A DNA stretch of 64,000 bases from Balanoglossus misakiensis (taxonomy: Eukaryota; Animalia; Hemichordata), in contig CM082576.2 in assembly GCA_040954595.2 (NCBI GenBank), forward strand, positions 10,729,129 to 10,793,128, read 5' to 3'. The notes below the pieces were generated by a model. It was not told where the DNA came from. It searched no databases and was given only the letters and a program-made list of their open reading frames with translations. The translations under genes and the position numbers were made by a program. This document shows positions 7,607-35,544 of the stretch, in pieces (position 1 is the first letter of the stretch; every line of letters begins with the position of its first letter).

Positions 7607-10600
7607 CATTAAAATGGTGAACCAGGGTGTGCAAATCATAATCTGTAGAGTGTATCTTGTAATGTGGTCAGATGTCATTAGGTTAAATTGCTAGGGATAT
7701 AATTATACTAATATTTTCCTCAATAGTAACCTCAGAAGCCATGATTTTTAACTTCGCTAGTCTGTTGTCCTTCAACTTCTCATTAGCATGTACACGTCCC
7801 CAAGCAGAATTACCCCAAATACCAGTATACCCTAAGTGTGTTTCACACCACTTGAAATCATATTTTTTACAGTTCAGCTGCAGGATTCATTTGCTGGATA
7901 GCCATGATGTGAGGTCTGTGGTCTGATATGTTAGTGCACTTGTAGACAGTGCAACTGTGTCATCTTCATATGACAATGCAATGTCATCTATTTATTGAGG
8001 ATATTTATACATAATTGATTTCTCTATGAGTTTGCATTCTTGACTGTCAGACCAGAAATATATATAAGTTCAGTTGAAGTTTTGACACTGAATTTTAGTC
8101 ATAATAGACCCAGCACCCTATAGTGAAGTTACCCCGTGTAAATTGAATACCAAGGAGATCATTGAGAAGCCTGGTTCATTTTTCTGAGCTCTTTTAACAT
8201 TCTGCGATGTCCTGTGCAAACATACCTGAGGAAATATACATCAAATATCAATAGTTTTTCAGATCATTGCATAATTGCACACATTGTCTTTCTTCATTCC
8301 TAATGTATTCACATTTTGAGCACGCAAAGCGTTGAATTGTCAGCTTTTTCTGACCTGATCAATTTCTTATATTAATTTGCTTCTACTTTTATTCAGGTAT
8401 TTTCATTGATTTTTTTGTAGTTCATGTTTTGTAGTTTATGATTTGTATTTGATACCCTGGTTCACCATGCATTGTAGCTGTCATCTTTCCTCGATGTGGT
8501 TTCTCTGTAGATAGAATGGTAGTAAGGATACAGTACTCGTAATAGCTTCTTCACATTGTCCATAAAAACAAAAGAAAATAACAACTAGAAAAAAAGCTGT
8601 CCATGTTTCTGCCAAATATTTGTGGTACACTTGCCCATCTCCATGAATTTTTCATTCTGTAAGTGTACTTTGTCACGGCTGATAAACTTGTTTTCCTTTT
8701 TATTTTATTGAAGCAATTAAAGATTTGCTTTTTTTAGTAGAACAGTCGTGTGTGTGTATGCATTTGTTTGATGTTTCTTGAAGTGAAGGCACTAGAAGTA
8801 TCTGCACAACAAAACTACTGGAGAGGACTGACGCTTGAAACAGATAAAAACAAAAGGGACACACAAAAAGAGGGTTGAGGGCATACAACATTGCACATAA
8901 TCCATCACTGTTGCTGAATGGTTTGGATCAAGATCACTCCACACATCCGTGTTTGGTTTTCAAAGGACACATTTCAAAAGAATAAACCATTAACAGAAAC
9001 ATTAATTTCCACTGTATTAAATTTTGCAAGTGTGTGGCCTTTAAACTTCTTATCTTCTCCATCCACAAAAGACAAGGACAAAAATATGATGTTCACTCTA
9101 CCTTGGTCAATGGCTTATCACCTAGACAAATGGACACCTGTAACCTTCCACAAGGTCATAAATGGCAACAGCGGTACTTATGACACTTTTTGTGATAAAA
9201 AGAGGCTCGCTTAGACAGTGTGGTATATGAAAATGAAGGGAAAGGGCAGCCACAGTCCAATGTTCTGGAAGTCGTTATCTCTAATACAGTTTGCATAAAT
9301 GAATACTAATGTAACTCGCATCCTGCATGTTGTGGAGTGCATATCACATCACAGTTCATTAATCGTCATTTAAACATCTTTATTATTATCACTTTGCATG
9401 TATATTTACATTCCAAACAAATTTTGGTAATCTGGCAGTTTTTAAATTCAAACAGAAGCACCGTAGCACCTTTTCATGTCTCCTCAGTGAGTTCATACAC
9501 ATCTTTTTTCTTAACTGGTACACAAAGACCAGTTTTCTGGGGTCGTAGAGACCGCAAGATCATTTCAACACAGGTTGTCACGCTAGCCAACTGTAAATAA
9601 TTCACATTTCATATTTACAAAGTCAAGTTCACTGGAATCGGGTGACTACAGCGCTCTTTCTCTAACTCGGATTCACATGATACATAAAATGTGGAGCTGA
9701 AGTAATGCCAATACATGTATTGGAATTAATCAGCTTCCATTTCTCAAGCAGAAAACAAGAAATAAGTCAGACACTACTGGGGGGTAGTACAGACAGACAG
9801 ACACAGAAGGAAAACTACTAAATCATTGTCAATGCTGATTATGATAATTGTATAAGATTTTCCATTTTTGTCACATTTACTTCTTAAGTATTAGCCATAT
9901 CCCATTGCTAAAAAGGTTGATCATATCACAATTACCAGCTTATGGAATATGAAATTCAAATAATAATGTTCACAGGTCAAAGGCTATGATCAGTACATAG
10001 ACAGCTTACATAATGCACATCTTTCGGAGGTATGATGGCTTTTTAACCTAATAGCTGGTTTTAATTGAGAGTAAGCTTACAATTTTTAGAAATTCATGCC
10101 AAGCAAAACATTTTTTAAACATCAAATTTTTTTTTTGCATTTCAAATGAGAAATTTTACCTTGTTCTATTTTATTTTTACCCAACACGCTGATGGCAGAG
10201 CATTGCTCAGAAACTACTAGTAGACGACGTAAATAATTTCACACAAAACGAAATTACCCTCGCTTTCATTCTAAGCCCATAAGCTGATCTAGATCAATGC
10301 TTAAATGTAAACCAACTGTTCAGGATGTTTCTGTGAGAACATACCGGTATGTGTTTTCATATTACAAACAAAACCATGTAAAATATTTTACATTATTTCC
10401 AACGAGGGAAATTTCGTTTGGGAAGCAGACATGGTACATTACACAGACATACAGCAATAATTTGAGACACAAGTGATGGCAACCAAATCCACATGGCAAT
10501 GCTGAAACCTGTGCTGACACTTTTTAAATTCTCCCTACCTTAAATAGGGTTTTGCTACCTAGGTGAGTGATAAAAATCTCACACGGTTGACACAATTTCA

Positions 10601-16500: not shown

Positions 16501-19500
16501 TTTTCGAACGGTTCTCCGTGGCCCCTCCATCCGTTGGTCGTCTTCTTCTTCGCCGTTTTGACTTTGGGAACGGCGGTCTCGACGGGTGCGCACACCACTT
16601 GACCGTCATCGCACGACTTCCTGGAGCCCTTCCCCACCTTCGGTGCGATTTTCACCGGTCTGGGTTTGTTGAGGCAGTTGTCCTGTACTGTGGCCGTTGA
16701 AAGGATGGACCCTGTTTGGTAGAATCCTGCGATTCATCAAGACGTTCAAGAAAAAATAAAATAATGCAATAAAGAAAATATGAGAAATGTATAAATATTG
16801 AAAACGTGACAGAAATGTGCCTAAAATAAATAACGATCTGACCAGTAATTTTTCATGGGGTATATGCACCAAGGTTGACAATGGCAGTAAGTGTGCAGTC
16901 ATTTTTTGGCATTATAAGCTTCAACCTTGACAGACTGTACTGGTAATCATGATACAGTAAATATCTGTTTGCACTGCAGTGGCCCATCAAGGGACTTTTC
17001 TCAAATGTTCTTTATTATCACTCTCTCTCTCTCTGTTTGAGTCTGGTTCTCTCTCTCTCTCTCTGTCTTAAAATTCTCTCTGTCTCTCTCTATATATACA
17101 ATGTATCTCTCTCCTGCGTGTACACGGGATATAATTACTTTGGCCTTGTTCTTGGGTATGTCACTGACATGTGATCATGCTTAAAGTAACAAATAAACCA
17201 TGCATTATACATCATTTCATATGCCCTGGTTGGGAATGAACTCCACTCTCACAGAAGTCAGTAGTCATTACACTATAATGAATCCCATCAAATGACAAAT
17301 GTATACTTGGTATCCTTTTGCTAATTTATTTTCAAGTAGCTGATTATTTTGTCCATGTAAGATAATCTAACTGACCCTGAACAGGAGCTCTGAAAGGGGA
17401 ATTTATTAGTCTAGGGTTATTTTTGCTGGGTCTTCTGTTTAATATGATGTGGAAACACCCGTGTAGAATAAAGATACAGAAACTGACACTTTTTATGACA
17501 TAATCTGTGATATTCCATGGAGAAAATGGTGTGACATATAAAGGGGTTGATTAGATATGAAAGAAATCACTGCCATATCTTACCTTGTGCAAAATGTGCT
17601 TGTGTTATCTGCGGGACGGGGTAAGCATTTCCGCCGATGTGCTGTGCCAACTGTACTGGCATGTATGTCGGCGTACTGAGGCTCCCGATCCCGCCGATGG
17701 TGATTGTCTGTTGCACGGAAGCAGCATCCAGAGTGGCGCTGTCCGCAGACGGCAGGATGACGTTGGCGCCGGCGGCCGACGCCAAAAGCTGCTGGCCGAG
17801 CCCCTCCAGGGGCGCCTGGCTCTTCGCCGACTTCTTCTTCTTCTTCTTGACAGGGTGAGCTGGCAGTGCTGACTGGTTGAAGATGACCGGGTTCGTGTTG
17901 GGGATGAAGTACTGGGGGCCAATGCCGGCCATGACCCATTGTCCGCCGCCGGTCGACAGCGTCTGTTTCCGCCTCTTGGGCTTGCACTCGCCCGGGTCCG
18001 AACACGAGCGCTTCTTGCGCGGCGAGGCGTTGGCCAGAACGGCCTTGGCGTTCAGGCTGGCCGCGCGGCTGGAGTTCCGCACTCCCTGGGCCGGGTTGGC
18101 CAGTTTCTTTTTCCACTTCTCCCTCGCGGTTTTCTGGGCTCTCTTCTTGGTGTCCAGGATTGCGGGAGGGGCGGGGATTGCATTCTGATCTCCGAGCACG
18201 GTTGCGTTCTGCAGAGGTATGAACTGCGGCTGAGCGTACATCTTGGTCAGATTGATCGGTTGTTGCCATAGCACCGGTGAGGGCGGTGGCAAACTTATTT
18301 TCGTAACGGGCGATGACACGTGAATTGTGTTTCCGTACACAGTACTGACTGAAATCGCAGCCTCTTTGCTCTTGGATTTCTCACTCTTCTTTGTTTTCCT
18401 CGATTCAACTTTGACTTCCACGTCTTGTTTGCTTTTCTTTGCCCTTTTCTTATAAGGACCGCGCTTTTTCTTTTCCACCGGCATTTCTGAACTTTTCCGG
18501 TTTTCATCCGTGCATTTTTTCCTCTGTGGTGGCTTCACTAGGTCCTTCTCATACAGCAACAGCATTTTGGTTTGCGCTGTCAGACTTGCTATTCTGCGCA
18601 CTCTGGGAGCAGGAATTACAGCTTCGCTGACAGACTTTGCCTTCTTTGTTTTGGCTTTAGTGTTCACCACTTCTGCCTTGTTCAAAGTACTGCTGTTCTT
18701 TTGTCCAACAAAAACTTCGTCATCATTATCACCAATATCAGTATCATCATCATCATCATTATCACCATTAACAGTATCATCATCATCATTATCACCATTA
18801 ACAGTATCATCATCATCATTATCACCATTAACAGTATCATCATCATCATCATTAACAGTATCATCATCATCATCATCATTATCGTCGTCATCAACATCCA
18901 CCTCATCATCGTCAATATCAGCATCACCTTCATCATCATGATTATCATAATCATCATCATCATCATCATCGTCTGTTTCAACTTTACTTGCATCATCCCT
19001 TTCAATTTCTTCCTCCTTCAACTGTTTCTCTTCCACTAAATCTGATGCGTTCTCCTCCTTGCATTGAAAACCACACACATTTGTCTTGACCTTGTCATCA
19101 TCCGCGACCGTCTCTGCCACGTGGCTCACATCTGAAGCTTCCACTTTGCTTTGCATGCACTTACACTTACACGGTGATCTCTTCATCGTGTTGTTATTCT
19201 CCTCCTTCGTCACACCCCACGCGCAGTCACCGCAGTTACTCTCAACCGGCTGACACTTACTCCTGGGTCTGTTCACGATTGTGTTTTCCTTGTAGCTGAC
19301 GACCTTCTCGACGGCGTTCCTTTCCCCGATGTGATGCCGAAACTTGTACTCTTCCGCCGACAGCTCGGCGTACATGTCCACCTTCTGTCTGTAATTCGGC
19401 AGAGCGACAGACCTGGGAATCCTTTGACTAACGACGAAACCGTTCTCCTCCCTTTTGATGCACTGTTCCAGCTTCCTCTTCTTCAGGTCCGCGTTCTCGG

Positions 19501-22500
19501 CGCGCCTATCCGCGCCGCCGAAGCCCAGCCTGCGCTTCCTGCCGTCGCTGGCGGCAATGTTTTTAGACTTCTGCAGGTAGGCGGAGACTTTGGACTCGGA
19601 CAGGCACTGCCTGCCCGGCGACACCATCTTGTATTTCGTGTTCGTGAGTTTGGCGTCGATGTTGAGCGAGTCGAGAAACTTGGTTCTGTCACTGTCGTCG
19701 ATCCCGTACAGCCTGTACTGTCCACTACTTTTCACATGGCCGTGGTCTACCGACCCGGCGCAGTTCTCTATAGTGGCGCTTGCGGGCCGTTCCATTCTCA
19801 CCGGAAAAACGTGTAATTCTCCGTCCTGGTAATTAAACTCCTGCAGTGAAATCAACAGAGAAACAAAGAGAAGCATTCAGACATACGCATTGCTAGCTGT
19901 GTCATTTCTTTGATGTCGCTTTTTAAGTACTTCCTCCTCTAGCTCTTTAATCACGGTTTGCGGAGTGACCGCGCTTCAGGCCATTCGAGCAGCTATAATA
20001 GGGAAGTCGCGCAGAATTTCGTGACTAAGACATTTATGTAAATCCCAACACAAGTAGCATGCAAGGGTCCTCAAGAAATCCCACTGTTAACCACAGCGTC
20101 TCGACACCAGATGATATATTGCTCTGTACTGTTGTTGTGGCTGCTGGCTTGAAATGAAACAAAGCAACAGGAATAGCACTGAATATGTGGCATCACTACC
20201 AACATGCAGAAACATATAGGCTGTGTTCTTAAGAATTGGTTTCTTCATAGAGAATTTGATGACAATGTCAAAACATCCCCACAGACTACTGATTAAAATC
20301 CCACTGTTTTTCTTTTTCTATAGACATGCTGCCAGGTATTCAGTTCAAACAATGGCGTTTAAAAAACACGACTCGGCCCCCCTTCCTGCTTGTCTGTCCC
20401 CGGACCAGGTGAAAATGTTTGTCTGGTTCATTATTTATTGCCCAAGCGTGATGCAGTGCGTTTGTTGCAATACAGTTACGACACCTTTTAGGCGTATTGC
20501 TGGTGAAGATTGATGGTTGCGAGCGAGCAAGTTCTATCTTGTTTAAGTCAACAGCTGCCATGTTCCACGTTCCTTTTTACGGGAAATTAATGAAGAGTCC
20601 TGTCAGCTATCGTAACAGGCAAAGAAGACGAAACTGTCAACTTCTACATGCAGGCTCTGTTATTTACCTTCATAGGCAACGTTCAGTGTGCTTTACCATT
20701 GACTAGCAAACGCAAACACGCGAGGCCGCTGCTATAATTGAATAGTCATTAAAGTAATCCAAAGCATAAACTCTATAATAGTGACTTTTTTTAATGGCCT
20801 GGTGGGAACATGCAGGCGTGGTTTGCACTGTTTTTTCTTGGTTTTGATGGCGATGATGGAATGCAAAGTAAGAGAGCTTGTCTTTCGCAATTTCTGACAT
20901 CAGGAATAGAACTAGAAGTACAAATGTGACTACTTAGATAATGACAAAAATTTATGGTTTAAATTTGCTATAGCACGTGTGCACTGAGGTCTGCCTATGC
21001 ATGGATCAAGCAGTCAGACACGTCTAAAATATGAAATTATACAAACATGTTAAATATTAAAATTTAACATATTGCCAGTAAATGTCAGAGAAAATGTATG
21101 TCAATTAATCATTTATGAGTCACATTATTAACAGTTACTGGAACTGTGTCTCGTACTGAAGATGTAATCTGCTATAAATGCAACTGTGCCCCTTGTCACT
21201 TTCAAAGGCTAACTGAACTCAGGCATGGCATGTGGGTCTATCACCCTCCCGATTAAAACCACTCACCTCTCCCTTACCAGTATATTTCCTCTGACATCCA
21301 AAATTGGTGTCATCATTTACAGGAGAACAGCGATCACATTTCAAACTGACCCCAGGGTGTGAAATCCAACCCATGTACTACTACTACTACCTTGGGTTAT
21401 TAAATTTCAAGTGGGCTGTTCACTCTCCAGATCTCCGGAGGGCACAAGGACGGACAGATCAAAGCCATATTTTTTCATGAAGATGCGTCTTTGCGAGGAT
21501 GGTTGAGGATGATGATCGAACAGCCATCCGCATGAAAAAATTGGTAGCTCTTCTTAGCCAGCCAGCTGCAAAACTGCAATCTGACTAACAATTTCCATAA
21601 CCTATGTACAGTGTATATACTGTCTTACTGAATACCAAGGAGTCTACATAAAAGTGCAACACCTAGCTCATATTACTCAGCACAGTGTGGCAGAATCATA
21701 ACCGAACAGATGAGAAAAAAATGCCCAGCAGACAGACTTGTTAAACCCTTCTCACCCCACTTCAATGTTCGTGTATCTCGTACTTTTCAAAGGACCGAGA
21801 GATGAGCGAAGTTCTGACAGAGATAACAGACAAAAACTGACAGTATAGTTTGAGTAGACAGCACAACTAGTTTTAGCCCTCCTCATTCCAAAGCATCAGT
21901 CACTCATAGGTCCTTCCCTGCATGTTCCAAAATTGAAAGGTGTAAATATTTGGACAAGTAAAACTGACCTGACAAGCAGGTCGCCGACACCCTAGCCAGC
22001 CATAATCGACTTGAGAAAAATAAACACATCATGCATCAATTATTGGTGGGTTGCCCTGACACAGCTACTGTTGCCAACCAATAACACTAGGCACAATACA
22101 CACAGCATCCCCATGTGAGCAACTTAAATTGGCCACTCAGGAGTCGTTTATTTTTTTCCCCCAAGACAGCAGAAACTCAATAACATCTCCCGCGTGCAGA
22201 TTGGAGCGGACTTACACACAGACTAGAAGATGGGGCAAATTGGCTGCCTGTCGTTCCCGCCATGAACACCTCATTAAATCTTTCCTGACGGAGATTATTT
22301 TCCGAGTTAAACACACCGCCCTCCGCACGGCACTATCGACTCGACCTGTTTCCCGGAATTCACCCGACCGTAATCCCGGGCTGAAAGCATAAATTGACAC
22401 TAATAATACTCGTTTACGGCATATACGAGGCTCAATTCTATTCCAGGTTTAAAAGTCATATGACTGTGCCCTCGAGTAAAATCCGACAATGTAGTCCGTA

Positions 22501-30479: not shown

Positions 30480-31658
30480 GGGACCGTTCAGTTTTTACGG
30501 CCGGGGGGGGGCCGGCAAAATCCAGGGGGGGGTCACTTGAATTTTGAAGTCCAAAAGGGGGGGGTCATCTGGTTTTTTTAAACGTTTAGGGGGGGGGTCA
30601 CATACTTTTGCCACCAAACTTTTGCTTTTGAGTCCACAAAATTGCAGTTTCGCGCCCTTTATTTTACAAAATTTTCTAATGTGGGAGGGGGACACCCCCT
30701 CCCACACCCACCCCCTACATTCTTTGCAACATATCGATTTTGGCTGGTTTGACTATTCTACCAGGGCAGAGTGCTTGCCACCCCAAACCCACTGATGATA
30801 ATATTTAACAAAGTTAATACATAAAGGAGAATAAACGTTTAAAACCATTTTGCATAACTGATAGTTTTGTGCTGCATCTTCTATATGCTGGAAGTTTTAT
30901 AAATGATGTCATGACGAAGATGACGCCAAATCTTCTAACTTTGAGTGGAATGGCAAAAAATAAAATTGGTCCTCCCAAACATTGAGATGAATTTGCTTTT
31001 GAGTTCATAAAAATGCAACTTTGAGCTACATATTTTACAAAATTTTCTTATGTGGGAGGGGGACACCCCCTCCCACACCCACCCCCTACATTCTATGCAA
31101 CATATCATTTATCCGCTGGTTTGTCTAGTGTACCAGGGCAGACTTATTCCCACCCCACCCCTATGCTTACTTTGAGTGGAGTGGCAAAATCAAAATTCGT
31201 CCTGCCTAACATTGACTTTATTTGCTTTTGAGTTCATTAAAATGCAACTTTGAGCTACATATTTTACAAAATTTTCTTATGTGGGAGGGGGACACCCCCT
31301 CCCACGCCCACCCCCGCCACTTGTTTTACCAATTCTAGCAACTATTGTATTGACTTGTCATTTTTATTTGTTCATAGATTTCTTTATTGCAACAATATTA
31401 TTAAATAATTCAATTACTTTAAGAAATTTATAATTGAGGGGTGAGGAGCCCCATTCCCTTTATTGCATACAGTGTATACATAGGATCAGGATGGCGAATG
31501 TTTTCGGCGTGGGGGGGGGGGGGTCATCATATTTTTGGGTCTGTCAAAGGGGGGGTCATCATTTTTTTGGGCTGGGTGAAGGGGGGGTCGGCCTGATTTT
31601 GAGAACCGATGACACAAACTTGCCAGCCCCCCCCCTGCCGTAAAAACTGAACGGTCCC
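30480..31658 (+). mobile_element. Complete PIF/Harbinger-like MITE (about 1.18 kb, non-autonomous)
   Basis: TIRs GGGACCGTTCAGTTTTTACGGC ... GCCGTAAAAACTGAACGGTCCC, with TTA on both sides (30477-30479 and 31659-31661), the 3-bp TSD typical of PIF/Harbinger. Internal subrepeats and no transposase ORF. A second copy is at 1-134. Confidence 0.88.
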
Positions 31659-32584
31659 TTAGACAATAGTTTCATTTCTCACCCAACGATTCCGCCAGTA
31701 GACAGAATATACGGCATGTTTGCTACTCTTGCTGTCTATACCGACCTTTAACACCAAATGCATGAACTATTATTTCCATCTCTGATCCAAACAGGAGTCG
31801 TTCTTCGCATGAAATACATATGTAGGCGTATTGCCTTGTTGGGGCGTTCTGCTACTTGATCGTATTTTTACAGAATTTCAATATTCCGTCGTATAAAACG
31901 TTTTAGTTTACAATAATAGGGATGTGGAGACTGTGACCTGGCCGAGCCAAGCGGACAATCGAATTTCAGAAACGGACAATGGGATTTTCTGAATAAATTG
32001 TGGCAATCATCTGTTCAGTTCCCTTGTACAAAGCCTTACTCAGGTGTGCTCAAGTCGACAGACCGTTTTTGCGTGATTCTGGCTGTGACGTACTTAAAAG
32101 CTGTACGCCTATTCCAATATGGTCATTTTTCTTTCAAAGTCGACTTCACGTGCATCTTCTCCCCAGCCTCCAAAGGTTTTGCTCTCCAGAGACAGTGGTC
32201 GCGCCAACGACTGTGTCGGATCATGTTGTCGCCCTCTAACGTCAACAAGAAATAACCACGTATACGACTGATAGATATTTATAGTGTAGCTTAAATAAAG
32301 TTTTTAGAGTGTAATTAGTACAGATATAGCCAATGAATGTGTAAGGGTGCAGTAACTAAAGTGTATTTCAGCAATCAGCTGTGACAAATTTTCTGTATAG
32401 AACTGAATTACGCACTATTTTCATGGAAAGTATGTGCACATGTATATGATCATCCTATATAGCAGTAAATGCTGGCGGGGGAAAACAGCCTAGAAACCCG
32501 GATTAGTTAAATGTAAATATCACGGAAATGATTGTCAACTGGTATCCGAAGACGATAGTGTAATGTACAGTACTGTTTTAACGT

Positions 32585-33631
32585 TTACATCGGTTGCAGT
32601 GGTTTTATCGATGCTGGGTCTCTGGTTGCCACGTGTTCTGGTCGCGTGGAGGCGCTGCTGCAGTAGGGAATGTCGCGCACCCTGTTACCTATGCTGTTGT
32701 ACACCATAAATATATTGATACGATTCCACGGCGATGCGTTGGAGTGGGAGGCGTGCAACAAGTTGCAGTCGAACACGACCACATCCCCGGGGTCTCCAGT
32801 GCAATATTCAATCCCCAGATCGCGTGCCAAGTCCGTCAGAGTCTGTTCTTCGGGAACTCCGTAGTCTTGCTGATGCTTCAGGGACTTCTGCCAGAAGTTG
32901 TCAGGTGTTGCCCCAACACAAGAGACAAACGTCTTGTGGGATCCCGGCATAACCATCAGGGCACCGTTCGCCGGTCGGTTGCGGCTCAGGAACACGACGC
33001 ACGACAGGCACCGCATCCTCGGCATCCCGTCTTCCGCGTGCCAGGTCTCGAAGTCGCTGTGCCAGTAGAACCCAGTGCCGCGGAACGCCGACTGAAAGTT
33101 CATCCGGGACTGATGAATGTAGACGTCGTCTGCCAAAATTTGTTTGGCAATAGCAATCAGGCGAGCGTTACGGGTTATCTCACCAAGCGTCTTATGGATT
33201 TCAAAAACGGACCGTACTTTTTCCGACCCGGGCTCAGTGGCGTATTTTACTGCACTTGTCACAAATGCACCCTTTCCACTTGATTGTTCGGACTCTATTC
33301 GATCCTGTAGCTTCTCAGCTTCTTGGAGGAACTGTTTGATTTGATCCTCGGTGAAGACGTTTTTCACAGTCACATACCCACTCGTGTCATATGCGCTCAA
33401 TTCCGACGACGTGAGGGGACCCTGTGAATTGCCCTGTCCCCACAGCACGGGGTCGCGACGCGGCAGAAAGCGTGTCTTCTCTACTCTTGTCGGGTAGACA
33501 TCTTCTTCCATCGAGGTTCCAGAAAAATAAACTCGACATAATTGACCGCACCCTCTTCTTCGAACCAGCGAGGTCAAGATGTGTAAATTTTTCTGGCGAA
33601 GATTTGATAGCGCCAACAGTAGGTTTTTCAT
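32585..33631 (-). CDS. ectD: Ectoine hydroxylase-like Fe(II)/2-oxoglutarate dioxygenase; intronless CDS with an N-terminal presequence-like extension
   Basis: 348-aa ORF with the EctD signature F-x-WHSDFETWH-x-EDG-[ML]-P (FYWHSDFETWHAEDGMP, 33070-33020). It also has the N-terminal D-x-YPTR...R-x-DPV motif, VYIHQSR, GALMVMPGSH, FDCNLLHASHSN (distal His), the R of WNRINIF, VYNS, and C-terminal RPEHVATRD. Confidence 0.92.
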   Translation of the reverse strand: MKNLLLALSNLRQKNLHILTSLVRRRGCGQLCRVYFSGTSMEEDVYPTRVEKTRFLPRRDPVLWGQGNSQGPLTSSELSAYDTSGYVTVKNVFTEDQIKQFLQEAEKLQDRIESEQSSGKGAFVTSAVKYATEPGSEKVRSVFEIHKTLGEITRNARLIAIAKQILADDVYIHQSRMNFQSAFRGTGFYWHSDFETWHAEDGMPRMRCLSCVVFLSRNRPANGALMVMPGSHKTFVSCVGATPDNFWQKSLKHQQDYGVPEEQTLTDLARDLGIEYCTGDPGDVVVFDCNLLHASHSNASPWNRINIFMVYNSIGNRVRDIPYCSSASTRPEHVATRDPASIKPLQPM

Positions 33632-35544
33632 CGCTGTCTACGTCTGAAAATACAAATGTAGACAATTTGCTATGCGAAACTGGAAATGTATTCACGCAAT
33701 TAAAAACTCTGCTGATACCGGCCGCTCCTCCAAGGATTGGGACTAGACTGAAACTATTTTGGGGATAAAAAAGGAGTAAAAAACTTTAGCAGAGAACAGG
33801 GAATACGCAATGTATTTTTGCATTTTGTTTAATAAATTTGCACAATTGTGATTTTTAACCTCAAATACAACCATGTTGCTCGTGTGGAGCCGCTTTTGTA
33901 TTTACATGTTATACTTCGTCTGCAATTATCCGCAAATATTACAATAGTCTTTATTTCTGTGGAACAAACATATCGTATGATGATCCCCCCGACAAAAATA
34001 TTCTATAGGTAGATGCATGGAGCTACCACAGACATGTAACTATAGGTAAAATCGCCTATAGGACCTCGTTTATAGAAATTAATCCTACAAAAAGCGTTTC
34101 AATTCTCTAACATCAACTACCTACCTAGGTTGGCCTATCGAATGTTCAATAGGTGACGAAGACATATATGTTATTTTTGCTAGGGCGAAGTCGTGCAGAA
34201 AGTAGGTTATATAACAAAAACGCTAATAGTCCCGTATGTAAATTATTCTCAAGGTCACAAAGCTATCCGAAGTGCATTATCTTGTGCTATGTACAACCTC
34301 AAAATGTATGTTTCACGTTAGCCTTGAAGAGCAGTATCATTGTGACACATTTGGCGGCGACATTGCGAAGTTCCCCCGTTATATAGAGGTATGCGTATTA
34401 AAAGCGATGGCAACGTATGTTGATGAGTTGGTCGACCATTGAAGTCACTGACATGCCGCACATAATATTCCCTCGATATGGGTGGGAACTAGTCCCCGGA
34501 AACTTAGAACTGGCAGACTTACCCCTGGGAAAAGGTGGGCAGATTTAAAGTAACGACAAGAGTATGGGAAGAGCTCAGATGGAAACGGACGACTGACTGA
34601 AGTCTTGCCTGAAGAAACTGTGACAAGGTTACGATACGTCAGCAAAGTCAACCAACTAGGACAATGTACGTTTTATCATTCAATCAATGATTGAAGTACG
34701 TACATTCATGGTACGTGTATTGAGTAGCGCGGACAGCAGAAGCCTGGGAACTATAAAACGATCATTACTATTTTACTATAGTGAAGCTACATATGGACTT
34801 CACACATTAAGATAAATATGGACAGATGATCAATAAATTAAACTCTTGAAAAGTCACGAAATTAATCTTCAATTCTGTTCATTCACATTTTGTCCAGTCA
34901 TCCACGGTAAACATGCATTGGAGCCACGGAAAGAAATGAAATGATCTGTTACAGAAACACACTTCTGGCTCTCACCTACACCACGCTTGCCAATCTATCT
35001 GTACATATATGCTGAACTATACAAACAGACCCACATGATTTTATGTAAAAAGGTGCTTGTACCCTGACCCTCTGGGTCATGGATATCTCAAGAACAGCTT
35101 TATACAATATCTGGCTCTCTGAAACATGACTGTCACATTGCTACACATTTGGTGTGCAAGTACTGTTTCGGAGTGGTAGAAACTGAATTGATTTCGATTG
35201 GTATGGTGTGTTTACTCTTTTGAGTAAATGGTATACCAATTTGTCTGTGTGTTTGTCTAAGTGGGCGTGTGTATGTGTGTGTCTGGAGGACAGGTGTTTA
35301 TTTGAGAATGTTACAACTGATCAGATATTGCCGATTTGACTGGTATTTTTTGCGTATGTAATAAAGTTTTCCCACTAACTCTCCAGATGGCAGCACATTT
35401 AGGACGTGTGAGCCAGGCGGCCATTATCTCCTGAAGTCTCCATCGTTGCCTGATGCAGAACCCACGGATCGGCCTCCATGGCAAATGCCGATATATTATG
35501 CAACACACATACTTTGCGTGTGTGTGTGGGATTTGGCGACTTTC

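What the first reader, a model, noticed from the sequence alone, without database searches (positions are those of the whole stretch)
32585..33631. Bacterial-type ectoine hydroxylase (ectD) embedded in an animal chromosome
Seen: an uninterrupted 348-aa ORF with the complete EctD signature FYWHSDFETWHAEDGMP, the HxD...H iron triad and the distal Arg. It lies between spliced BAHD1 and DEX1-like genes and is the only complete gene here whose CDS lacks introns. Established: EctD converts ectoine to 5-hydroxyectoine, an osmo/thermoprotectant, and is mainly prokaryotic, often clustered with ectABC. No ectA/B/C is visible in this window. Inference: a horizontally acquired, domesticated gene that lets a marine animal hydroxylate endogenous or diet/microbiome-derived ectoine. 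From memory, ectoine-pathway genes have been noted in some halophilic protists and invertebrate deuterostomes, so its presence may not be new, but I know of no functional characterisation in animals.
Basis: partly seen in the sequence, partly recalled or inferred. Interest (0 to 1): 0.9.

Follow-up and report, generated by a model that had tools for sequence, protein, structure and literature searches.

The report
Acorn worm ectoine hydroxylase, protist-type
An acorn-worm-like animal carries a real, selection-maintained gene for an enzyme that keeps the active site of bacterial ectoine hydroxylase, is predicted to work in mitochondria and likely makes the stress protectant hydroxyectoine; related genes were already noted in acorn worms and lancelets, and this copy resembles protist versions more than bacterial ones.

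Summary
Window 33631-32585 (minus strand) is an unbroken 348-aa ORF with the full EctD signature, iron triad and every published ligand residue, one of them conservatively changed. It is a host gene under purifying selection: between two alleles 11 of 11 core differences are synonymous and no indel lies in the ORF. A neighbouring gene places the host among acorn worms, nearest Ptychodera. Presence in animals is not new: Harding 2016 (PMC4987115) reported putative EctD in Saccoglossus and Branchiostoma, though with substituted active sites. The protein is not 'bacterial-type': it groups with protist, lancelet and acorn-worm EctDs, apart from all named prokaryotes sampled (100/96). Nesting in two bacterial groups is rejected; a position sister to prokaryotes is not. 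Acorn worms also hold degenerate paralogues, which probably explains the 2016 remark. Expression, location and activity are untested; no ectABC lies in the window. Verdict: new member of a known, functionally untested kind.

The parts
32585..33631 (-). ectD-like coding sequence, 348 aa, no intron in the CDS
   Evidence: purifying selection
33509..33631 (-). codons 1-41: predicted mitochondrial presequence (7 Lys/Arg, 0 Asp/Glu in the first 40 residues; disordered in the model)
   Evidence: similar extensions in other eukaryotic members; no dedicated predictor was available
32585..33508 (-). codons 42-348: EctD catalytic domain (a second ATG, Met41, lies just before it)
   Evidence: aligns to residues 9-301 of 4mhr; fold match to EctD structures, target TM 0.88-0.90
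33020..33070 (-). 17-residue EctD signature, residues 188-204, holding F188, H191, D193, T196, W197
   Evidence: signature as defined in PMC2871039 and PMC5924519
32720..32755 (-). distal iron ligand H293, S295 and R304 (2-oxoglutarate site)
32642..32644 (-). R330, equivalent of the hydroxyectoine-binding Arg-280
33644..34522 (-). possible 5' UTR intron (candidate donor at 34522, candidate acceptor 12 bases before the ATG); unproven
   Evidence: donor ranks 1 of 129, acceptor only 5 of 106 in the interval; no RNA run available

Best explanation
This is a working gene of an acorn-worm-like animal that encodes an iron- and 2-oxoglutarate-dependent enzyme of the ectoine hydroxylase family, predicted to be imported into mitochondria, where it likely converts ectoine into the stress protectant 5-hydroxyectoine. 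Shown: intact ORF, EctD signature and ligand residues, EctD fold, purifying selection, placement among eukaryotic EctDs. Inferred mechanism: the basic N-terminal 41 residues direct import and are removed; H191, D193 and H293 bind Fe(II); F188, S295 and R304 hold 2-oxoglutarate, which is plentiful in the matrix; Q174, H191, T196, W197, R330 and V334 hold ectoine; O2 is split, giving succinate, CO2 and 5-hydroxyectoine. The ectoine would come from food (bacteria, microalgae) or from a partial own pathway, since ectC-like genes were reported in Saccoglossus and Branchiostoma. Inferred origin: the gene belongs to a eukaryote-wide EctD lineage of ultimately bacterial affinity, and most likely reached early deuterostomes from a protist already carrying the targeted form, then duplicated in acorn worms into an intact line (this gene) and a line with a remodelled pocket.
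For: Signature and ligands: 13 of 15 positions checked match the prokaryotic pattern; the other two are Gly at the Glu-140 position, also found in 21 of 80 GTDB sequences, and Gln at the Lys-133 position, shared with 9 of 11 named protists. Hydroxyectoine ligands as listed in PMC6890836; iron and 2-oxoglutarate residues as in PMC2871039. Best solved-structure matches by sequence and fold are the two EctD enzymes (E 2e-80 and 3e-74; Foldseek E 4e-32 to 4e-31); proline hydroxylase H11 follows at about 30% identity, human PHYHD1/PHYH at 14-17%. Selection: 11 of 11 core differences synonymous, P 8e-8 under neutrality; presequence 5 synonymous, 3 not, P 0.027; no indel in the ORF against 5 listed upstream. 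Host linkage: one 1831-base contig joins most of the ORF to 0.9 kb of 3' flank, depth is of the same order as the spliced neighbours; GC3 0.61 against 0.60 and 0.64 in two long neighbouring frames and 0.41 and 0.48 in two others. Presequence: basic, acid-free N-termini also in Saccoglossus, Glandiceps, Pharyngomonas and Ploeotia members; Harding 2016 predicted such signals on all Halocafeteria ectoine enzymes. Tree: 20 named eukaryotic rows apart from 15 named prokaryotic rows, 100/96, and from 95 prokaryotic rows, FastTree 93; nesting with Proteobacteria/Bacteroidota or Firmicutes rejected, p-AU 0.003 and 7e-5; animals as one clade not rejected, p-AU 0.256. The eukaryote-type motif gave 2 matches in metagenome contigs; one lies beside Slu7, a eukaryotic splicing gene, the other on a contig too short to place.
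Against: No expression, localisation or enzyme data. The protein scores 320.4 bits on TIGR02408, under the 336.5 cut-off, as do 14 of 15 eukaryotic members tested. Lys-133, found in 89 of 95 prokaryotic rows and otherwise Met, is Gln here; its role in 2-oxoglutarate binding is recalled, not read. Bona fide EctDs also act on proline and pipecolate, and substrate range is not deducible from sequence (PMC6890836). No source of ectoine is shown for this animal; no genome was held to search for ectABC. Animals are not one clade in the best trees (4 changes; lancelets join Balamuthia at 97/88 and the nearest row to the query is Pharyngomonas). The trees are unrooted, and the query as sister to all prokaryotes is not rejected (p-AU 0.455). 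Three Clydonella, Paraphysomonas and Cladocopium members show no such presequence in my count (for two the boundary motif was not found). The DNA runs are one sample and may be the source of the assembly.
Confidence: 0.6

Rival explanations
1. Same gene and chemistry, but the substrate in the animal is another cyclic imino acid such as proline or pipecolate, not ectoine.
For: Bacterial EctDs hydroxylate proline, pipecolate and homoectoine. No ectoine source is shown here. Acorn-worm paralogues have already remodelled the pocket (Thr-149 to Ile/Val, Trp-150 to Phe), so the family drifts in this lineage. Proline hydroxylase H11 is the next structural neighbour.
Against: All listed hydroxyectoine ligands and the strict 17-residue signature are kept, unlike H11 and unlike the degenerate paralogues; ectC-like genes were reported in the same animal groups; microalgae and bacteria in the diet contain ectoine (PMC7024275 abstract).
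Confidence: 0.22
2. Origin rival: the gene came straight from a bacterium into the animal line, independently of the protist copies, and gained its presequence afterwards.
Against: 12 positions shared with other eukaryotes and rare in 95 prokaryotic rows, none the other way; 100/96 split; nesting in two bacterial groups rejected.
Confidence: 0.15
3. Origin rival: the eukaryotic EctD lineage is ancient, inherited vertically from an early eukaryote and lost in most animals and most other lines.
For: Members occur in amoebozoans, a heterolobosean, a euglenid, alveolates, a chrysophyte and deuterostomes and sit on one side of the tree, many with presequence-like ends.
Against: The named animal hits were only enteropneusts and lancelets, which needs many losses; relationships inside the group do not follow the species tree, though support is low. 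Harding 2016 judged ancestral presence less parsimonious for ectABC.
Confidence: 0.3
4. Artefact: bacterial DNA joined into the assembly, or a dead recent insertion.
For: No introns in the CDS; no RNA evidence; no single contig bridges the 5' end with 31 letters on both sides.
Against: Bridging 3' contig and overlapping allele pairs across the start; strong purifying selection; best relatives are acorn-worm, lancelet and protist proteins.
Confidence: 0.01

Closest known systems
Bacterial ectoine hydroxylase EctD (Sphingopyxis alaskensis 4MHR/4Q5O, Virgibacillus salexigens 3EMR; TIGR02408)
   Same: Fold, 17-residue signature, iron triad, Phe/Ser/Arg 2-oxoglutarate site, listed hydroxyectoine ligands.
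   Different: 41-residue N-terminal extension, an insertion near residue 113 absent from 95 of 95 prokaryotic rows, Gln for Lys-133, score under the family cut-off, no ectABC nearby.
Ectoine dioxygenase-like proteins of Saccoglossus kowalevskii (XP_077869181.1), Branchiostoma spp. and Glandiceps talaboti (XP_077984040.1)
   Same: Best animal relatives, 51%, 43-47% and 44% identical; same side of the tree; basic N-terminal extensions. XP_077869181.1 also keeps the full signature.
   Different: All 4 lancelet rows have His for Gln-127; the Glandiceps protein and two further Saccoglossus proteins (APU50791.1, XP_002733616.1) have a broken signature and form their own clade, 100/93.
Protist EctD, e.g. 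Halocafeteria seosinensis (Harding 2016), Pharyngomonas kirbyi, Balamuthia mandrillaris
   Same: Predicted mitochondrial targeting (for Halocafeteria; for the others), shared diagnostic residues, nearest rows in the tree.
   Different: Halocafeteria has ectABC-ask, introns in these genes and salt-induced ectD expression; none of that is shown here. No row in my trees was named Halocafeteria.
Microbe-like deuterostome genes of Simakov et al. 2015 (PMC4729200)
   Same: Same pattern: present in hemichordates and cephalochordates and in marine microbes including eukaryotic ones, not seen in other animals.
   Different: The word ectoine is not in the main text or the two readable supplements; I recall it being in the supplementary note, which could not be read.

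Membership tests
Ectoine hydroxylase EctD | 17-residue signature F-x-WHSDFETWH-x-EDG-M/L-P | tested here: met
   Residues 188-204 match exactly; definition read
Ectoine hydroxylase EctD | His-Asp-His iron triad | tested here: met
   H191, D193, H293
Ectoine hydroxylase EctD | 2-oxoglutarate residues Phe-143, Ser-250, Arg-259 (V. salexigens numbering) | tested here: met
   F188, S295, R304
Ectoine hydroxylase EctD | Hydroxyectoine ligands Gln-127, His-144, Thr-149, Trp-150, Arg-280, Leu-284 | tested here: met
   Q174, H191, T196, W197, R330 identical; V334 for Leu-284, where 80 GTDB rows have Ile 61, Leu 13, Val 6
Ectoine hydroxylase EctD | Lys at position 133 (role in 2-oxoglutarate binding recalled, paper not held) | tested here: not met
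   Gln here; Lys 89, Met 6 in 95 prokaryotic rows; Gln 12, His 5, Lys 3 in 20 eukaryotic rows. Not a defining feature in the papers I read.
TIGR02408 equivalog (prokaryotic naming rule) | Score at or above 336.5 bits | tested here: not met
   320.4 bits; 14 of 15 eukaryotic proteins fall under it, 4 of 4 bacterial controls pass
Ectoine hydroxylase EctD | Cupin/DSBH fold closest to EctD structures | tested here: met
   Model pLDDT 82, pTM 0.82; top five fold matches are EctD
Ectoine hydroxylase EctD | Hydroxylates ectoine to (4S,5S)-5-hydroxyectoine | not testable with these tools
   Needs an enzyme assay
Ectoine hydroxylase EctD | ectABC in the same genome | tested here: inconclusive
   Absent from the window; no genome held
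Animal PHYH / PHYHD1 | Closer to PHYH/PHYHD1 than to EctD | tested here: not met
   14-17% identity, E about 1e-13, against 38-40% and E about 1e-32 for EctD; no PHYH rows were in the trees
Mitochondrial matrix protein | Cleavable basic amphipathic presequence | tested here: inconclusive
   Composition fits (7 basic, 0 acidic, hydrophobic moment 0.40) and the frame is under selection (P 0.027), but the moment did not separate it from controls and no predictor or experiment was run

The most novel reading that the evidence does not exclude
Acorn worms and lancelets are the first animals that make hydroxyectoine themselves, in mitochondria, with an enzyme taken over from a protist by the deuterostome ancestor; in acorn worms a duplicate line has since evolved a new substrate.
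Probability: 0.3. Interest if true: 0.72.

Novelty: new member of a known kind. Interest (0 to 1): 0.38.

Why it matters
Hydroxyectoine is known as a stress protectant of bacteria, a few archaea and, by gene evidence, some protists. The one report I found on animal copies said their functional residues were mostly substituted, which implied they were not true ectoine hydroxylases. This gene and one Saccoglossus protein keep the whole site, and this one is under strong purifying selection, so the question 'does an animal make hydroxyectoine' is directly testable with a single-exon gene. Its placement with protist enzymes bears on how early deuterostomes got their microbe-like genes: from eukaryotic microbes, or by old inheritance, rather than straight from bacteria. 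The presence of such genes in acorn worms is not itself new, which caps the interest.

Tried and rejected
No whole genome is held for this window, so the genome-wide search for ectA/B/C could not be done. No RNA holder listed; expression and the 5' UTR intron stay open. Splice-site scoring with matrices from 10 acceptors and 12 donors picked by eye in the neighbouring gene was inconclusive: the acceptor near the ATG scored 3.9, reached by 7% of 3667 minus-strand AG sites. No AATAAA or ATTAAA within 985 bases after the stop. Summed contig depth is no copy number and the three runs are one sample, so depth is used only as a rough check. No named Ptychodera flava, echinoderm or protostome protein appeared among the 120 best rows of either homologue search, but only the 7999-8000 candidates sharing most words were scored and bacterial proteins crowd the lists, so this is not absence. 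The eukaryote-type motif gave no match in viral contigs; the alignment search there gave 1 locus, of prokaryote type. The protein atlas gave no answer. The EctD ligand-complex paper (Hoppner 2014) is not held. Supplements that could not be read and may bear on novelty: Harding 2016 (EctD tree, fig. S10) and the Simakov 2015 supplementary PDF. Earlier findings of this scan: nothing returned in 3 look-ups. Rejected: contamination, PHYH/PHYHD1 orthology, nesting inside Firmicutes or the Proteobacteria/Bacteroidota rows. No complex prediction was run, as no binding claim is made.

Full report
1. Observation. The minus strand of 32585-33631 reads as one 348-residue frame from ATG to stop. It matches TIGR02408, ectoine hydroxylase, at E 9e-96 and 320.4 bits, under the curated cut-off of 336.5, and Pfam PhyH. 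The best solved relatives are the Sphingopyxis and Virgibacillus EctD enzymes, E 2e-80 and 3e-74. A predicted structure (mean pLDDT 82, residues 1-40 disordered) has the same enzymes as its top five fold matches, then proline hydroxylase H11 at about 30% identity, and human PHYHD1 and PHYH at 14-17%. The flanking genes are spliced, with weak FG-GAP and BAH matches; their names are recalled. No ectA, B or C is in the window.

2. Host. An exon of the adenylate-cyclase-10-like gene in the window is 80% identical to Ptychodera flava, 66% to Glandiceps and 52% to Saccoglossus, so the host is an acorn worm, probably near Ptychodera. The ectD protein itself is not in the protein collection.

3. A real, selected gene. 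Three DNA runs of one sample hold the stretch; they may be the source of the assembly and are not independent. One 1831-base contig spans 31686-33528, and depth at the ORF (about 30-35 in X1, 112-118 in X2) is of the same order as in the spliced neighbours. Overlapping allele pairs cross the start codon, though no single contig bridges it with 31 letters on both sides. Of 19 differences listed in the ORF, 11 lie in the catalytic part and 11 of 11 are synonymous (P 8e-8 given 209 synonymous and 712 other sites); 8 lie in the first 41 codons, 5 synonymous and 3 not (P 0.027). No indel is listed in the ORF; 5 are listed upstream. Both parts are therefore very likely translated.

4. Active site. 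Against Sphingopyxis numbering (from the alignment), the protein keeps Gln-127, Arg-129, Asn-131, Phe-141, His-144, Asp-146, Thr-149, Trp-150, His-245, Ser-247, Arg-256 and Arg-280; Leu-284 is Val, as in 6 of 80 GTDB rows; Glu-140 is Gly, as in 21 of 80; Lys-133 is Gln, as in 0 of 80 but 9 of 11 named protists. The hydroxyectoine ligands are those listed in PMC6890836 (passages); the iron and 2-oxoglutarate residues and the signature are from PMC2871039 (passages), PMC5924519 (passages and section 5.2.4) and PMC3979721 (passages and one section). The role of Lys-133 is recalled; Harding 2016 notes that dinoflagellate EctDs lack one 2-oxoglutarate residue, which I infer is this one.

5. N-terminus. 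The first 40 residues hold 7 Lys/Arg and no Asp/Glu; Saccoglossus, Glandiceps, Pharyngomonas and Ploeotia members are alike, lancelet and Balamuthia members nearly so, Clydonella is not. This is the make-up of a mitochondrial presequence (established knowledge), and Harding 2016 predicted such signals on all ectoine enzymes of Halocafeteria. It is a prediction from composition only. A second Met at 41 could give a cytosolic form of bacterial length.

6. Relatives and origin. The nine best hits to the protein are from Saccoglossus (51%), Pharyngomonas, a cluster named Symbiodinium sp. KB8, Branchiostoma (two), Balamuthia (46%), Glandiceps and one unnamed cluster, before bacterial proteins. Further eukaryotic members are from Ploeotia, Chromera, Cladocopium, Clydonella, a dinoflagellate and Paraphysomonas. 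I chose 68 rows of about 350 EctD-like proteins fetched (named eukaryotes, unnamed rows that grouped with them in a first fast tree, and diverse prokaryotes; near-copies and one mis-spliced Balamuthia model left out). In the careful tree one branch, 100/96, separates 26 rows holding all 15 named prokaryotes from 42 rows holding all 20 named eukaryotes and 22 unnamed rows. At 12 positions the query carries a residue found in at least 60% of eukaryotic rows (itself counted) and at most 10% of prokaryotic rows; the mirrored test gave none. On a 31-row subset, nesting with the Proteobacteria/Bacteroidota rows (p-AU 0.003) or Firmicutes (7e-5) is rejected; sister to all prokaryotes is not (0.455); animals as one clade is not rejected (0.256) but is not recovered either: lancelets join Balamuthia, and the query's nearest row is Pharyngomonas. 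The trees have no root, so they show kinship with protist copies, not a donor. A eukaryote-type motif matched 2 metagenome contigs; one carries Slu7 and is eukaryotic, the other is too short to place.

7. Two acorn-worm lines. Saccoglossus has at least three copies: XP_077869181.1 with the full signature, and APU50791.1 (deposited as 'ectoine hydroxylase-like protein 165') and XP_002733616.1, which with the Glandiceps protein form a clade (100/93) with Thr-149 and Trp-150 replaced. All 4 lancelet rows keep the signature but have His for Gln-127. Among the 9 animal rows, only this gene and the intact Saccoglossus copy keep both the signature and Gln-127.

8. What is in print. Harding 2016 (PMC4987115; passages and one section; supplement unreadable) reported ectC-related and putative ectD genes in B. 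floridae and S. kowalevskii, said most functional residues of the animal EctDs were substituted, and suggested spread of ect genes between protists after a bacterial transfer. PMC5924519 and PMC5796728 (passages) repeat the animal occurrence of ect genes. Simakov 2015 (PMC4729200; passages, two spreadsheets searched, PDF unreadable) describes over a dozen microbe-like deuterostome genes without the word ectoine in what I could read. Searches for ectoine with Branchiostoma, amphioxus, hemichordate, deuterostome, and for EctD with eukaryote, mitochondria and lateral transfer returned only these papers; two broader searches were seen as listings only and showed no study of the animal enzyme in their titles. 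The library lacks most subscription journals. Ectoine occurs in microalgae (PMC7024275, abstract). PMC8313267 was seen as passages and added nothing.

9. Mechanism and verdict. Most likely a mitochondrial ectoine hydroxylase acting on dietary or partly self-made ectoine (0.6); another imino-acid substrate is the main rival (0.22), since bacterial EctDs accept such substrates. For origin I put a protist donor at about 0.5, old vertical inheritance at 0.3, a direct bacterial donor at 0.15. The gene is a new member of a known but functionally untested kind. What is added here is an intact, selected animal copy, a likely presequence, and kinship with protist rather than bacterial enzymes. Interest 0.38.

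Noticed in passing
L081:1695-4819: A viral contig carries, in one run, a DUF3440/PAPS-reductase-like gene, an EctD-like gene with the signature, an ectoine-synthase-like gene and a ParB-domain gene. No ectA or ectB is evident among the ORFs listed; the setting suggests a role other than osmoprotection, perhaps DNA modification (inference).
   Followed up: partly
P0007, P0149, P0158 (Glandiceps and Saccoglossus proteins): A clade of acorn-worm paralogues keeps the iron triad but has Ile/Val-Phe in place of the ectoine-binding Thr-Trp, pointing to a new substrate.
   Followed up: partly
P0172, P0177, P0180, P0181 (unnamed, 485-631 aa): Long proteins on the eukaryote side of the tree with an extra N-terminal domain and WHQDFEQWH in place of the signature core; P0141 and P0188 share the motif.
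   Followed up: no
window 33509-33511: A second in-frame ATG (Met41) right before the catalytic domain would give a protein of bacterial length, a possible cytosolic form.
   Followed up: no
window 30500-31660: High-copy interspersed repeats just downstream of the gene, with depth in the tens of thousands and many joints.
   Followed up: no
window 17567-19876: A 769-codon open frame in the BAH-domain gene with an Asp-rich tandem run; no Pfam match.
   Followed up: no
L083:3633-5531: A eukaryote-type ectD beside Slu7 and ribosomal protein S9 genes on a seawater metagenome contig, an unnamed marine protist.
   Followed up: partly
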